A stretch of DNA of 32,000 bases from Cereibacter sphaeroides 2.4.1 (GCF_000012905.2 NC_007494.2:420001-452000), one strand, 5' to 3'. Shown: positions 4,519 through 7,491, counted from the stretch's first letter. Translations and numbers: made by a program. Notes: generated by a model from the letters alone, not told the origin.

Positions 4519-4710
4519 GGAAGGTGCCGTGGGCGGAGCGATCCGCCCGCGGCGACCTTGGCAGGGTATGAGGCCCCGCGTCCGACGCCGCGACCCAAAC
4601 CAGATCTCGTGCTCTTGGGGCAAGGTACCGATTACCGTACGCGGCGGGTTGTCACAATCGAGAGGAGGGCAGCCCTCAAGTGTTCTGCGCGCAGGTTGCG
4701 GCGCCATGAC

Positions 4711-4749
4711 GCATCACCTGCCTTGCTCCTTGAGCAAGCCAGGTGATGC
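4711..4749 (+). terminator. 39-nt near-perfect palindrome followed by a T-rich tract; putative intrinsic terminator or boundary element
   Basis: GCATCACCTGCCTTGCTC-CTT-GAGCAAGCCAGGTGATGC gives a 17/18 bp stem with one C.C mismatch and a 3-nt loop. It is followed by TGTCTTCTTTG. It lies exactly where GC content drops. Confidence 0.5.
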
Positions 4750-4855
4750 TGTCTTCTTTGATGGCGTGGCGCAAAACTGCCAAGGGCAACGAAGCGCCAA
4801 CCCGGCATAGATCCCGCCGAACACGCTGCCCGATACCTGTGGAGGAATGAGTTCA

Positions 4856-5914
4856 ATGTCTATCGAGCAAACGATCAAGGTTCTCTCTGAGCGGGTCAGG
4901 CAGCACAGCGCGAACATGATGACGGAAGAGGCAGTCAAGACAGCAGTCGTCCTGCCGTTTCTTCAGAGCCTCGGATACGACGTCTTCAACCCTTTCGAGG
5001 TTGTTCCGGAGTTCACGGCGGACGCGGTAGGAAAGAAAGGCGAGAAGGTCGATTACGCGATCAAGCTCGAGAACGAAATCCGCATCCTTGTCGAGTGCAA
5101 ACCGATCAGCACGAACCTCGACAAGGTGCACCTCGCACAGCTCTTCCGCTACTTCACGGTCACCAGCGCGAAATTCGCCATCCTGACGAACGGCCGCTAC
5201 TTCCACTTCCACACGGATCTCGACGAACCAAACAAGCTGGATAGCCGACCCTTCTTTACGTTCGATCTGGCCGAGCCGCACGCTCAGGTTCTGGCGGAGT
5301 TGAAGAAGTTCGAAAAAATCGGCTTTGACGTCGACACGATTCTCGCGAATGCAGAGCGGCTTAAATATACGTCAGCTATTAAGGCTCACATCCATCGGAT
5401 CATGGAGGATCCGCCCGAGGAACTGATTCGCTTGGTAACCGCTCCGCTCCATGAAGGACGATATACGGCAGCCGTGATTGATCAGTTCCGCGGACTCTTG
5501 AAATCTGCGTTCAAAGAGATGATCCGCGAGGCAGTACATGAACGGCTTTCGTCGGCTCTCGCCAGTAACGAGCCGGTAGCCGAACCGTCTGAATTGGAAC
5601 CTTCAGAACCAGACGTCGTCACGACGCAGGAGGAGATGGAGGGCTTCATGATGGTCAAGGCAATCGTCGCAGGTACGATCAAGCCAGGCCGCGTACATAT
5701 GCGTGATCAGAAGAGCTACTGCGGGATCCTCGTTGACAACAACAACCGCCGTCCGCTGGCACGTCTCCACTTCAATCGTTCGGTCAAGTACATCGGGCTA
5801 TTCGACGGTGAGCAAGAGGAACGCGTTCCGCTTACGTCCACGGATGACATCTATGCCTACGCTGAGCGCCTCCGAGTGACTGCCGCTCGATACGTCGAAA
5901 TGTCCAGCACCTAG
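4856..5914 (+). CDS. Standalone HsdR_N-type PD-(D/E)xK nuclease-fold protein (COG2810-like, 'predicted type IV restriction endonuclease' class)
   Basis: The N-terminal ~140 aa match the type I restriction HsdR N-terminal / Mrr-cat-like pattern: TEEAVKTAVVLPFLQSLGYD, PEF, then VDYAIKLENEIRILVECKP (D...ExK), then QLFRYF...AILTNGRYFHF. A helical linker and acidic spacer follow. The C-terminal ~95-aa domain (YCGILVDNNNRRPLARLHFN..KYIGLFDG) I recall as typical of this family. The GGAGGA RBS at 4841-4846 favours ATG 4856 over the track start 4847. GC is low relative to the flanks. Confidence 0.7.
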   Translation: MSIEQTIKVLSERVRQHSANMMTEEAVKTAVVLPFLQSLGYDVFNPFEVVPEFTADAVGKKGEKVDYAIKLENEIRILVECKPISTNLDKVHLAQLFRYFTVTSAKFAILTNGRYFHFHTDLDEPNKLDSRPFFTFDLAEPHAQVLAELKKFEKIGFDVDTILANAERLKYTSAIKAHIHRIMEDPPEELIRLVTAPLHEGRYTAAVIDQFRGLLKSAFKEMIREAVHERLSSALASNEPVAEPSELEPSEPDVVTTQEEMEGFMMVKAIVAGTIKPGRVHMRDQKSYCGILVDNNNRRPLARLHFNRSVKYIGLFDGEQEERVPLTSTDDIYAYAERLRVTAARYVEMSST

Positions 5915-5963
5915 GCCTCAGTTTAGATTTTTTGTCTCGGGTCACGATCTGCGGCCAATCAAG

Positions 5964-5993
5964 GCTGCTGCCGATAGATCATTCGGCAGCAGC
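5964..5993. terminator. Bidirectional hairpin terminator between convergent genes
   Basis: GCTGCTGCCGA-TAGATCAT-TCGGCAGCAGC forms a perfect 11-bp stem with an 8-nt loop containing GATC. It lies between the stops at 5914 (+) and 6082 (-). A T-run (GATTTTTTG) lies just upstream at about 5925-5935. Confidence 0.55.
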
Positions 5994-6081
5994 TCGACAA
6001 GGTCTTTCAACTCCCGGACGTGCCACAGACGGCATGGAACGGCCGGTTATAGTCCCCACAACGGACCCGGTGCCTGAAATT

Positions 6082-7098
6082 CTAGCGCCTCAGGGGGATG
6101 TTGGAGATCCGTACTCGCCGCCATGCGTCTTGCATCCCCTTCGCTTCCAGCTTTGAAGCCAAGGCCTCATATATTGGCCAAGGCGTCGCCGTTGGGCCGA
6201 TAATGATTTCCTCGATCAATTCTGGCAGCGTCGCCCCTATCAAACCTTCTTCTGGAAAGTTCATCAGGGGAAGCTTGTAAACTCTTTGCGGCACGCCATT
6301 GATCGTTTCGATATCGTATCTTATTCGTGGAGAAGGCATCAGACTTGGCGAATGGATAACACGCCACTCCCGCTCCTCCCTGAATCCTGGATGCTTTAGA
6401 GATAGGATGGCGAAGTGCAATGCATTCGTGACGTACATGCGCACCTCTTCTCCGCCCAAAGAGCACAAGAAGGCGCGCTCCCGCTCCAGCCTTGAGACAA
6501 AACTCTCGAATTCTCCTTTGAACGAAGTTGGGCAGCAATAATGGACGGGACTGGTGAACGCCGTGTACGCCGTGCTTCTTGCAAAGAAAGGAGTAGTGCG
6601 AAACACGAAGGCAACGTTCGTGTTCCCGCCGTAGGCTCGCCACATAGAGAGGCGGCCGTACTGGTCTTCCTCTGTCGAACCGTTGCCGTGTTCACTGATC
6701 GAAACAAGATAACTTCCTATCGTCTGATGTACCGCAATATTCATTAAATCTTCAAGCAAGGTAGCAGAAAGACCCGCTTTTACATCTTCCAGAATGGTGT
6801 GAAGCCTGCCCCCTGCCACGCCGCCAATGACCGGATCCTGCAAAGCATGATTTACACAATCTTGGCCATGCTGGATCTCGGAGAAGTCGTTCATCACGAC
6901 CGCGTTTCGCATCCAAACTTCTTCTTTTTCGATTATCTGAAGAGCCGCGTAAGCGCTTGTATAATGAGCAAAGCGCGCTCCTCTCGCTCGCAGATCGGCG
7001 GAGCGAGATCGCGCATGATGAAAGAATATCTGCTCAATCCTATCTTGCTCGTCATCATTGGTCACACTGAGCGTCACTCTTGCCTCCGGAGACGACAT
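6082..7098 (-). CDS. DUF2971 family protein (function unknown)
   Basis: Family hallmarks as I recall them are present: FAHYTSAYAALQIIEKEEVWMRNAVVMNDFSE near the N-terminus, SMWRAYGGNTNVAFVF, VHYC, and LKHPGFREEREWRV. This gene has the lowest GC in the window and atypical codon usage. Confidence 0.7.
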   Translation of the reverse strand: MSSPEARVTLSVTNDDEQDRIEQIFFHHARSRSADLRARGARFAHYTSAYAALQIIEKEEVWMRNAVVMNDFSEIQHGQDCVNHALQDPVIGGVAGGRLHTILEDVKAGLSATLLEDLMNIAVHQTIGSYLVSISEHGNGSTEEDQYGRLSMWRAYGGNTNVAFVFRTTPFFARSTAYTAFTSPVHYCCPTSFKGEFESFVSRLERERAFLCSLGGEEVRMYVTNALHFAILSLKHPGFREEREWRVIHSPSLMPSPRIRYDIETINGVPQRVYKLPLMNFPEEGLIGATLPELIEEIIIGPTATPWPIYEALASKLEAKGMQDAWRRVRISNIPLRR

Positions 7099-7289
7099 TC
7101 ACCCGCCAAGCCTATACCGCCACTTCAGAGCCCGCTGGAACTCCGATTCTTCGGTCGTCAACCATATGGCGACGACGACTTGCAGCTACGGCACGACTGC
7201 AGGTTGCCAGCGCGGCTATGGGCGAAGATGCCAGCGCCGTCAGGTCGCGTTGAGATCAGAGTGTCGGGGGGCAGAACGAAGCTGCTCTG

Positions 7290-7346
7290 CTGCAGGTTCT
7301 CGTGTCCCGCACTGCAGGTCTTCGTGTCCCGCTACAACCGCTACAA
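7290..7346. repeat. Tandem 22-bp direct repeat plus a GCTACAA doublet in a non-coding region
   Basis: CTGCAGGTTCTCGTGTCCCGC (7290-7310) and CTGCAGGTCTTCGTGTCCCGC (7312-7332) are 19/21 identical. GCTACAA-CC-GCTACAA follows at 7331-7346. Further CTGCAGG copies are at 7197 and 7478. Confidence 0.6.
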
Positions 7347-7491
7347 TTCGTTTTGTCCACAGAAGAGTTTGCACAGGCCCCTTTACAGTCTTCCGCTTTG
7401 CGAACACCATATCTAGTGAGGACGGAGGCAGGCAGCGCCGTCCCTTGCCGCGCACCCAGCTTCTTGTGGGTGATCCCCTGCAGGCGGTTCA

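What the first reader, a model, noticed from the sequence alone, without database searches (positions are those of the whole stretch)
4519..7491. Low-GC two-gene cargo island (orphan PD-(D/E)xK nuclease + DUF2971 protein) at the gpD end of a P2-like prophage: candidate undescribed anti-phage/conflict locus
Seen in sequence: directly after the tail operon (T-U-X-D) and a phage methyltransferase, base composition falls from the high 60s % GC to about 50% (by eye) for roughly 3 kb. It recovers at the conserved ybjN-proC block. The island holds only two genes, and they are convergent. One is an HsdR_N-type nuclease-fold protein with no helicase, methylase or specificity partner. The other is a DUF2971 protein. 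A strong bidirectional hairpin separates them. A 39-nt palindrome bounds the island on the left and an iterated CTGCAGG region on the right. Established knowledge: P2-like prophages carry variable anti-phage cargo at fixed loci (for example old, tin and fun/Z in P2), and horizontally acquired low-GC morons at prophage ends are a classic location for defence genes. Inference: the pair, or each gene independently given the convergent layout, is a phage-carried exclusion or defence function. To my knowledge neither family has an experimentally defined role.
Basis: partly seen in the sequence, partly recalled or inferred. Interest (0 to 1): 0.8.

Follow-up and report, generated by a model that had tools for sequence, protein, structure and literature searches.

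The report
Prophage defence slot, two solo genes
The low-GC stretch is the swappable cargo slot at the right end of a decaying P2-like prophage in Cereibacter sphaeroides. It holds two unrelated stand-alone genes that are probably anti-phage: a restriction-type nuclease and a DUF2971 enzyme from the family of the known Aristaios defence gene. It is a good example of a known phenomenon, not a new kind of system.

Summary
GC falls from 0.72 to 0.56 over window 4519-7491. Two intact convergent genes lie there: A (4847-5914, HsdR_N-type PD-(D/E)xK nuclease) and B (6082-7098, DUF2971).

The island is a precisely bounded cargo slot (4599-7286). It lies between the prophage Dam-like methylase and a conserved 50-bp terminal element (7287-7336). 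Sister prophages with the same flanks carry Old, a Ppl-like gene, an unknown 495-aa ORF, or A' plus a DUF6680 gene. More distant relatives carry PD-Lambda-5 after gpD. It is therefore a real defence hotspot.

The "pair" reading fails. A and B never co-occur in 204 other loci, B has no conserved neighbour, and B alone is swapped between strains.

The claim that neither family has a defined role is outdated for B. DUF2971 is the family of Aristaios, a validated single-gene abortive-infection system predicted to be an ADP-ribosyltransferase.

I found no experimental study of A. Its family is large (989 clusters at 50% identity) and strongly constrained (dN/dS 0.07). In proviruses it typically sits in the lysogeny operon next to the CI repressor and integrase.

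Verdict: a new member of a known kind, with A as a reasonable candidate for a new single-gene defence family.

The parts
2573..3547 (+). gpD, the last tail gene of the P2-like prophage backbone
   Evidence: Pfam Phage_GPD. GpU, tail X, TMP, GpE, the tail assembly chaperone (Pfam Phage_TAC_7) and the tube protein lie upstream in identical public contigs.
3580..4518 (+). Dam-like D12-class N6-adenine DNA methyltransferase, a prophage backbone gene (public aa, from 3691)
   Evidence: Pfam MethyltransfD12 1.5e-23; PADLOC MTase_II 5.5e-63. GC3 is 0.88. Sister prophages keep it at 92-94% identity with quite different cargo behind it.
4599..7286 (.). Variable cargo slot of the prophage (the low-GC island proper)
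   Evidence: Homology to sister prophages L230, L231 and L233 ends at about 4597-4600 and resumes at 7282-7287. GC of 4600-7278 is 0.549.
4711..4749 (.). Imperfect palindrome or hairpin followed by a T-rich tract, upstream of gene A
   Evidence: 18-nt arms, 94% complementary. Folding energy -32.3 kcal/mol, z -5.4. Degenerate in the L221 allele and absent upstream of the six other A homologues checked.
4847..5914 (+). Gene A: stand-alone PD-(D/E)xK nuclease (HsdR_N type, phrog_4225) with a helical middle region and an uncharacterised C-terminal beta domain; probable true start at 4856
   Evidence: Pfam HSDR_N and HSDR_N_2; phrog_4225 9e-106 over the full length. E55, D69, E83 and K85 are at least 95% conserved in 81 sequences. 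Best structural match is the DrdV nuclease domain, E 1.6e-3, probability 1.0. dN/dS is 0.067.
5963..5994 (.). 12-bp-stem hairpin between the convergent genes; part of the exchangeable B cassette
   Evidence: Folding energy -29.8 and -28.5 kcal/mol on the two strands, z about -5. No U-tract. It lies inside the segment replaced in L221 and L222.
5827..7278 (.). Strain-variable B cassette: the last 88 bp of A, the hairpin, gene B and its upstream region
   Evidence: Homology between the window and CP033447/CP033451 breaks at 5826 and resumes at 7279. In those strains the segment is replaced by a 114-aa ORF plus a DUF6680 gene.
6082..7098 (-). Gene B: single-domain DUF2971 protein, predicted ADP-ribosyltransferase of the Aristaios family
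   Evidence: Pfam DUF2971 1.1e-9. Y46, Y156, E242 and E244 are invariant and H45 is conserved in at least 90% of 26 homologues. AlphaFold model pLDDT 87.6. Literature: PMC11381338, PMC12522546.
7287..7336 (.). Conserved 50-bp terminal element of the prophage with two 22-nt direct repeats (CTGCAGGT(T/C)(C/T)TCGTGTCCCGC); it closes the slot and may hold integrase arm-type sites at attR (inference)
   Evidence: It is 98-100% identical behind every alternative cargo. The repeat was found. It has no RNA structure signal, z 0.0.
7492..8013 (+). ybjN, the first host gene on the right flank
   Evidence: Pfam YbjN 1.2e-31. The flank is 98.3% identical between strains whose prophage segments are 91-96% identical.

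Best explanation
The island is the terminal cargo slot of a P2-like prophage on the roughly 0.95-Mb second chromosome of Cereibacter sphaeroides. In this strain the prophage has decayed to a tail-gene remnant. Related prophages keep the same flanks: gpD and the methylase on the left, and a 50-bp repeat element at the right end. They exchange what lies between, most likely by recombination in those flanks (inferred).

In this strain the slot holds two independent, horizontally acquired single-gene cassettes. Each is most likely expressed from the resident prophage and most likely protects the lysogen against other phages.

Gene B is a DUF2971 protein of the family that contains Aristaios. It is probably a self-contained sensor-effector. 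On infection it would use NAD+ to ADP-ribosylate a nucleic-acid or transcription target and abort the infection. The two large helical inserts would keep it inactive until then (inferred).

Gene A is a stand-alone PD-(D/E)xK endonuclease. Its catalytic domain is that of type I HsdR and type IIG/IIL enzymes. It has no helicase or cognate methylase. It probably cleaves incoming DNA in a modification-dependent or infection-triggered way, using its uncharacterised C-terminal domain for recognition (inferred).

Shown: the anatomy, the slot boundaries, the alternative cargo, the independence of A and B, intact catalytic motifs and purifying selection. Inferred: expression, anti-phage activity and biochemical targets.
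For: Origin: public contigs identical to the window are C. sphaeroides replicons of 0.94-1.18 Mb.

Slot boundaries: homology to sister prophages stops at about 4598 and resumes at 7287.

Alternative cargo in the same slot: Old (PADLOC 1e-222), Ppl-like (3.4e-40), an unknown 495-aa ORF, and A' plus a 114-aa ORF plus DUF6680. In more distant relatives PD-Lambda-5 A and B (1e-137, 1.7e-117) follow gpD. All of this cargo is low in GC.

Independence of A and B:
- None of 80 genome loci with B homologues holds A within 10 kb.
- None of 80 proviral loci with A holds B, and none of 44 proviral loci with B holds A.
- The largest cluster of genes neighbouring B covers 4 of 80 loci.
- Only the B segment (5827-7278) is replaced in CP033447 and CP033451.

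Foreign origin: B homologues have lower GC than their flanks by more than 3 points in 93% of 71 genomes, with a median of -13 points. A is -6 points in proviruses and -10 to -12 points in three genomes.

Prophage association: within 3 kb of provirus ends there are 17 of 49 A loci against 14% expected (p 3e-4), and 7 of 18 B loci (p 8e-3). DUF2971 genes lie within about 2.4 kb of gpD in L179, L180 and L203, overlapping it in L203. One directly follows a 64%-identical methylase in L198.

A in the lysogeny module: a CI-like HTH/S24 repressor family lies within 4 kb in 39 of 80 loci, most often just upstream on the same strand. A tyrosine integrase is nearby in 21 loci, a serine recombinase in 11 and an ImmA-like protease in 6. 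The same is seen in annotated phages: Juicebox has repressor, A, metalloprotease and, further on, integrase; Javan316 has regulator, A and integrase. BstA, AbiD and a type IV restriction enzyme occupy the adjacent position in other proviruses.

A is functional: dN/dS is 0.067 at dS 0.64, the catalytic E55, D69, E83 and K85 are conserved, and the fold matches the DrdV nuclease domain.

B: the family is validated as an anti-phage single gene, Aristaios, which acts on phage transcription (PMC11381338, PMC13064643). It is predicted to be an ADP-ribosyltransferase of the H-Y-E motif class (PMC12522546). The corresponding H/Y/ExE positions are conserved in B.
Against: No experiment bears on these two genes. 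Defence is inferred from location and family.

B shares only the 89-position Pfam DUF2971 core with the family. I could not compare it with the Aristaios sequence itself.

Foldseek found no ADP-ribosyltransferase for the confident B model. The best PDB E-value was 0.77, and the viral library returned only uncharacterised proteins. A profile search of PDB sequences found nothing.

A is unusually conserved for an arms-race gene. Its closest alphaproteobacterial homologues sit alone between housekeeping genes, not in defence islands.

The immediate neighbours of B in genomes are mostly housekeeping genes, with only a few mobile or defence genes.

A is frameshifted in one strain (CP012961), so it is dispensable.

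The prophage is a remnant in this strain. The genes might persist for reasons other than defence, for example addiction.
Confidence: 0.6

Rival explanations
1. A and B form one two-gene conflict system, such as nuclease plus ADP-ribosyltransferase, sensor plus effector, or toxin plus antitoxin.
For: They are adjacent, convergent, share one hairpin and have similar low GC. They are kept together at 99.9-100% identity in several C. sphaeroides strains.
Against: They do not co-occur in 80 genome loci or 124 proviral loci. B is replaced by DUF6680 cargo while A stays. Their GC3 differs (0.69 against 0.57). Each family is typically solitary.
Confidence: 0.03
2. A is the restriction partner of the upstream Dam-like methylase, forming a type II restriction-modification module.
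For: The genes are on the same strand, 329 bp apart, and the nuclease fold is of restriction type.
Against: The methylase is kept at 92-94% identity in sister prophages that lack A. Only 2 of 80 proviral A loci hold a related methylase within 10 kb. The three genomic A homologues examined have no methylase neighbour. The composition break at about 4600 falls between the two genes.
Confidence: 0.05
3. One or both genes are selfish or addictive cargo rather than immunity genes. A could be a self-propagating homing-type nuclease gene. B could be a toxin that stabilises the element or acts on other cells.
For: Both families occur as single low-GC genes dropped between housekeeping genes, with no mobility genes nearby. 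They persist in a prophage that is losing its structural genes. About 18% of DUF2971 proteins are predicted secreted effectors (PMC12522546).
Against: The slot carries proven defence systems in sister prophages. A sits in lysogeny operons where exclusion genes are usually found. Aristaios is a demonstrated anti-phage gene. B has no neighbouring antitoxin. A is inactivated without consequence in one strain.
Confidence: 0.2
4. The genes serve the phage's own lytic cycle, for example host DNA degradation or modification of host RNA polymerase in the manner of T4 Alt/Mod.
For: Phages do encode nucleases and ADP-ribosyltransferases for host takeover (established knowledge). A is annotated 'endonuclease' in phage records.
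Against: In proviruses A lies on the repressor/integrase strand, not in the early lytic operon. Both genes are kept intact in a remnant that cannot grow lytically. Both are common outside prophages.
Confidence: 0.07

Closest known systems
Aristaios, a single-gene Abi-like system from a Lactococcus plasmid (DUF2971, 316 aa)
   Same: Both match Pfam DUF2971, have similar length and a one-domain architecture, stand alone with no partner, and are carried on a mobile element (PMC11381338).
   Different: No similarity detectable by BLAST: tblastn of B against plasmids gave no Lactococcus hit. The host phylum differs. B is prophage-borne rather than plasmid-borne. The anti-phage phenotype of B is untested.
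DarT of DarTG, and AbiGi (ADP-ribosyltransferase-fold anti-phage toxins)
   Same: They are the proposed distant relatives of DUF2971, with H-Y-E/ExE-type motifs (PMC12522546). Three of 26 B-family members give faint AbiGi hits, best E 0.21.
   Different: There is no DarT or AbiGi match at meaningful E-values, no macrodomain or other antitoxin neighbour, and no structural match to ADP-ribosyltransferases by Foldseek.
P2 and P4 variable anti-phage hotspots
   Same: A fixed locus in a P2-like prophage with conserved flanks and interchangeable low-GC defence cargo. A P2-type Old gene is one of the alternatives here.
   Different: The host is an alphaproteobacterium. The slot lies after gpD and a methylase at the right attachment end. 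It is closed by a 50-bp repeat element. The prophage is partly decayed.
Nuclease domains of type I HsdR and type IIG/IIL enzymes (DrdV, MmeI class)
   Same: The N-terminal PD-(D/E)xK domain of A matches HSDR_N and HSDR_N_2, the N-terminus of PADLOC REase_MTase_IIG (9.7e-8) and the DrdV structure.
   Different: A has 355 aa with no helicase, methylase or specificity domain. It carries a different helical region and a C-terminal beta domain with no recognisable relative.
BstA and other exclusion genes encoded next to prophage repressors
   Same: The genomic position is the same as for A homologues in proviruses, in the lysogeny operon beside the repressor. BstA itself occupies the neighbouring position in 2 of the 80 A loci.
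   Different: There is no sequence relationship, and the mechanism of A is unknown.

Membership tests
DUF2971 / Aristaios-type single-gene systems | Match to Pfam PF11185 above the gathering score | tested here: met
   39.9 bits against a cutoff of 22, E 1.1e-9. All 26 aligned homologues also match.
DUF2971 / Aristaios-type single-gene systems | Acts alone, with no conserved partner gene | tested here: met
   The largest neighbour cluster covers 4 of 80 genome loci and 3 of 40 proviral loci.
DUF2971 / Aristaios-type single-gene systems | ADP-ribosyltransferase core with H / Y / ExE motifs | tested here: inconclusive
   Y46, Y156, E242 and E244 are invariant and H45 is conserved in at least 90%. 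The model has two large helical inserts, as published for the family (PMC12522546). However, Foldseek and sequence searches find no ADP-ribosyltransferase.
DUF2971 / Aristaios-type single-gene systems | Direct similarity to the Aristaios protein, and a phage-protection phenotype | not testable with these tools
   The sequence of pUCCL641_199 is not held: no supplement text is available and there was no Lactococcus hit in the plasmid search. The phenotype needs an experiment.
DarTG toxin-antitoxin | DarT domain plus an adjacent macrodomain antitoxin | tested here: not met
   No DarT hit even at E up to 10. No conserved neighbour.
Type I restriction-modification (HsdR) | Nuclease domain joined to an SF2 translocase, with hsdM and hsdS nearby | tested here: not met
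   Only the HSDR_N domains match. The protein has 355 aa. No helicase, HsdM or HsdS is present in the slot.
Type II restriction-modification with the upstream D12 methylase | Nuclease and methylase inherited together | tested here: not met
   The methylase occurs without A in L230, L231 and L233. A occurs without a related methylase in 78 of 80 proviruses.
Type IV (modification-dependent) restriction enzymes | Solitary nuclease without a methylase, plus a recognisable modified-base reader domain | tested here: inconclusive
   Solitary status is met. No reader domain is recognised, no PADLOC mREase_IV model matches, and the C-terminal domain is unassigned.
P2-like prophage defence hotspot | Fixed position between conserved backbone sequences | tested here: met
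   The left break is at about 4598 and the right break at 7287 in five aligned prophages.
P2-like prophage defence hotspot | Alternative cargo in relatives, including known defence systems | tested here: met
   Old, Ppl-like, PD-Lambda-5, A' plus DUF6680, and a 495-aa unknown ORF.

The most novel reading that the evidence does not exclude
Gene A may represent a very widespread single-gene immunity family that I found no experimental description of (COG4748 / phrog_4225). The family has 989 clusters at 50% identity at E<=1e-30 and is present in at least 237 IMG/VR contigs and 19 sequenced phages from several phyla. On this reading it is a restriction-type nuclease that prophages express from the repressor operon. 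It needs no methylase, and it recognises invading DNA, or an infection signal, through a C-terminal domain with no known relative.
Probability: 0.4. Interest if true: 0.6.

Novelty: new member of a known kind. Interest (0 to 1): 0.45.

Why it matters
The locus shows that P2-type defence hotspots, best known from enterobacteria, also operate in a high-GC alphaproteobacterium. The slot boundaries are base-precise, and the catalogue of cargo is clear: Old, Ppl-like, PD-Lambda-5, an Aristaios-like gene and several unknowns.

That gives three cheap, well-motivated candidates for new single-gene defence functions: the A nuclease family, the DUF6680 pair and the 495-aa ORF. It also gives a second, phylogenetically distant DUF2971 gene on which to test the proposed ADP-ribosyltransferase mechanism.

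It is not a new principle.

Tried and rejected
1. Two-gene system: rejected by the co-occurrence tests and the strain comparison.
2. A as partner of the methylase: rejected.
3. Independent confirmation of an ADP-ribosyltransferase fold for B: Foldseek against PDB and BFVD, phmmer and hmmsearch against PDB sequences, and relaxed Pfam scans gave nothing significant.
4. Solved relatives of A by sequence: none.
5. Palindrome 4711-4749 as a conserved operator or slot boundary: it is not conserved and lies inside the slot.
6. The 7270-7345 repeat as an RNA structure: z 0.0.
7. Non-coding RNA or a tRNA at the junction: no Rfam match in 4000-8200. The only tRNA, tRNA-Ala at 11068-11143, is 3.7 kb away.
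8. attL/attR direct repeats in the shortened prophage L012: none convincing. I did not obtain a prophage-free empty site; the ybjN and proC look-ups returned only prophage-bearing contigs.
9. Retrieving the Aristaios sequence: not available.
10. Extra cargo variants through the 27-nt right-end motif: viral and metagenome scans returned only contigs already seen or an L221-type copy.
11. Literature on A: no experimental study found. There are only annotation-level mentions, such as COG4748 in S. meliloti prophages and in Tn7 cargo.

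
Full report
**What is in the sequence.** The window comes from a Cereibacter (Rhodobacter) sphaeroides replicon of about 0.95-1.2 Mb. Public contigs CP047032, CP033443, CP033435 and CP012961, and an ENA assembly that is 100% identical over 9 kb, carry the same genes. The closest database proteins are named C. sphaeroides. GC is 0.720 for 1-4518, 0.557 for 4519-7491 and 0.700 for the rest. Third-position GC is 0.69 for gene A and 0.57 for gene B, against 0.88-0.95 for the surrounding genes. Gene A (4847-5914, +) matches HSDR_N and HSDR_N_2. Gene B (6082-7098, -) matches DUF2971. Upstream lie gpU, gpX, gpD and a D12-class adenine methylase; downstream lie ybjN and proC. 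The hairpin (5963-5994), the palindrome (4711-4749) and the clustered CTGCAGG motifs are all real.

**The island is a bounded cargo slot of a prophage.** I compared the window with other C. sphaeroides strains and with IMG/VR proviruses whose gpD is 95-97% identical.
- The shared backbone (gpD plus methylase) runs to window position about 4598, where the sequences diverge.
- All of them share a 50-bp element again at 7287-7336. It consists of two 22-nt direct repeats plus a few bases and is 98-100% identical.
- To the right of it, the window and strain CP033447 continue into the ybjN promoter. That flank is 98.3% identical, whereas the prophage parts are 91-96% identical.
- In the IMG/VR contigs, which hold tandem prophage copies, the element is followed by another prophage segment.

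The prophage therefore ends at about 7336-7346, and A and B lie inside it. I infer that the repeats are integrase arm-type sites of attR. This is not tested.

In the window's strain the prophage is a remnant. The identical contig L011 shows tube, tail assembly chaperone, gpE, tape measure, U, X, D, methylase, A and B. It has no sheath, baseplate, head, lysis or integrase genes. Strains CP033443 and CP033435 have also lost the segment from tube to U, while CP033447 still has a sheath gene.

**The slot is a defence hotspot.** Between the same two flanks, sister prophages carry different cargo:
- Old (L230:4208-6040, PADLOC Old E 1e-222 over the full length).
- A Ppl-like PHP-ATPase plus an IS transposase (L233:6493-9303, Ppl 3.4e-40).
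- A 495-aa ORF with no Pfam or PADLOC hit (L231:10219-11706).
- In strains CP033447 and CP033451, a 94%-identical allele of A followed by a 114-aa ORF and a DUF6680 gene in place of B.

More distant relatives (gpD 59-76% identical) carry PD-Lambda-5 A and B directly after gpD. All of this cargo is low in GC.

**A and B are independent.**
- None of 80 genome loci holding B homologues (36-54% identity, one per species) has an A homologue within 10 kb.
- None of 80 proviral loci with A has B, and none of 44 proviral loci with B has A.
- B has no conserved neighbour at all. The largest neighbour cluster covers 4 of 80 loci, and 150 flanking ORFs hit 156 different Pfam families.
- Within C. sphaeroides, only the segment 5827-7278 is exchanged. 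It comprises the tip of A, the hairpin, B and the region upstream of B.

The two-gene reading is therefore rejected. A is also not the partner of the adjacent methylase. The methylase persists without A in L230, L231 and L233, and only 2 of 80 A proviruses hold a related methylase.

**Gene B.** The family is well conserved. Y46, Y156, E241, E242 and E244 are invariant in 26 homologues, and H45 is conserved in at least 90%. The AlphaFold model is confident (pLDDT 87.6, pTM 0.85) and shows two large helical inserts.

- DUF2971 was assigned to the H-Y-E clade of ADP-ribosyltransferases, near DarT and AbiGi, with exactly such inserts (PMC12522546).
- Aristaios, a 316-aa DUF2971 protein from a lactococcal plasmid, is a validated single-gene abortive-infection system that interferes with phage transcription (PMC11381338, PMC13064643).

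My own attempts to confirm the ADP-ribosyltransferase fold failed. The best Foldseek PDB hit had E 0.77, BFVD returned only uncharacterised phage proteins, and there were no PDB sequence hits. Three of 26 family members gave faint AbiGi hits. The enzymatic assignment therefore rests on the published analyses plus motif conservation.

B-type genes are compositional aliens almost everywhere. Their GC is below that of the flanks in 93% of 71 genomes, with a median of -13 points. They are enriched near provirus ends, with 7 of 18 within 3 kb against 14% expected (p 0.008). They recur near gpD in other P2-like proviruses (L179, L180, L203) and directly after a 64%-identical methylase in L198.

**Gene A.**
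- The N-terminal domain is a PD-(D/E)xK nuclease with E55, D69, E83 and K85 conserved in 81 sequences. It matches the N-terminus of type IIG enzymes in PADLOC and the DrdV structure by Foldseek (E 1.6e-3, probability 1.0).
- A helical region and a five-stranded C-terminal domain have no recognisable relative.
- The family is large and uniform in architecture. It has 989 clusters at 50% identity at E<=1e-30, nearly all of 340-390 aa. It matches phrog_4225 over the full length.
- It occurs in 19 sequenced temperate phages of Pseudomonas, Porphyromonas, Corynebacterium, Enterococcus, Streptococcus, Clostridium and others, at 29-48% identity.
- In 80 proviral loci a CI-like HTH/S24 repressor family lies within 4 kb in 39, most often just upstream on the same strand. 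An integrase or serine recombinase is nearby in 32, and an ImmA-like protease in 6.
- Annotated phages show the same arrangement: Juicebox gp34 repressor, gp33, gp32 metalloprotease and gp26 integrase; Javan316 regulator, A and integrase. This is the classic position of exclusion genes. BstA, AbiD and a type IV enzyme occupy neighbouring positions in some of these proviruses.
- Between the two C. sphaeroides alleles, dN/dS is 0.067 at dS 0.64. By comparison dS is 0.03-0.04 in gpU, ybjN and proC. This indicates strong purifying selection and a mosaic history.

Two points weigh against a simple defence reading. The closest alphaproteobacterial homologues (65-75% identity) are solitary genes between housekeeping genes, although they are 10-12 GC points below their flanks. 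A is frameshifted in CP012961. I found no experimental work on this family. There are only annotation-level mentions.

**Mechanism proposed.** I propose two independent single-gene immunity cassettes expressed from the resident prophage.
- B would be an auto-inhibited NAD+-dependent ADP-ribosyltransferase that aborts infection, as Aristaios does.
- A would be a methylase-independent restriction-type nuclease that attacks incoming DNA, either in a modification-dependent way or on an infection trigger.

The hairpin would terminate both convergent transcripts. Cargo exchange would occur by recombination in the conserved flanks. All of these steps are inference. The anatomy, the hotspot, the independence of the genes and the selection on A are shown.

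**Verdict.** The slot is a genuine variable defence hotspot. The "pair" idea and the claim that both families are uncharacterised do not hold. The finding is a new member of a known kind: a P2-type prophage hotspot containing an Aristaios-family gene. Its genuinely open component is the A nuclease family.

Noticed in passing
L231:10219-11706 (IMGVR_UViG_2681813553_000004): A 495-aa low-GC ORF fills the same slot between the methylase and the 50-bp end element. It has no Pfam or PADLOC hit, so by position it is a candidate new defence gene.
   Followed up: partly
L221:7809-9067 and L222 (CP033447, CP033451): The alternative cargo that replaces gene B is a 114-aa ORF with no family plus a DUF6680 gene, both low in GC and without PADLOC hits. 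In L221 the DUF6680 gene is interrupted by a masked run of N.
   Followed up: partly
L230:7050-8271: A type VI retron (RT_VI 8.6e-95 plus HTH_VI 2.4e-36) lies just beyond the 50-bp end element, at the start of the next tandem prophage copy. This suggests a second cargo site at the left end of these prophages.
   Followed up: no
L012, L013 (CP033443, CP033435), L224 (CP012961), L001 (CP047032): The prophage decays differently in different strains. The segment from tube to U is deleted in two strains, and gene A is split into 157 and 170 aa in CP012961. CP047032 shows many split genes, probably assembly errors. Methylase, A and B are otherwise kept at 99.9-100% identity.
   Followed up: partly
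window 1957-5914 compared with L221: Synonymous divergence between the two prophage variants rises towards the slot: gpU 0.03, gpX 0.14, methylase 0.28, gene A 0.64. The host flank is at 0.035-0.04. This is the pattern expected of a recombination hotspot with mosaic ancestry.
   Followed up: partly
L015-L094 (80 genomes) and L225-L227: DUF2971 genes and close A homologues usually appear as single low-GC genes between housekeeping genes, with no integrase or transposase nearby. How such solitary cassettes move is unexplained.
   Followed up: no
L232:9172-11138 and L233:2984-5156: In one C. sphaeroides-type provirus, about 2 kb is inserted between gpD and the methylase. It includes a 462-aa glycine-rich-domain protein and is bounded by a duplicated 3' fragment of gpD.
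   Followed up: no
window 11068-11143: tRNA-Ala (CGC) is the only tRNA in the window. It is 3.7 kb from the prophage end, so it is not the integration site.
   Followed up: yes
L239:9201-11426 and L238:8834-11136: In more distant relatives of the prophage, the methylase after gpD is the B subunit of a complete PD-Lambda-5 system. The window's methylase hits PD-Lambda-5_B only weakly (4.7e-20), against 5.5e-63 for a type II methylase model.
   Followed up: partly
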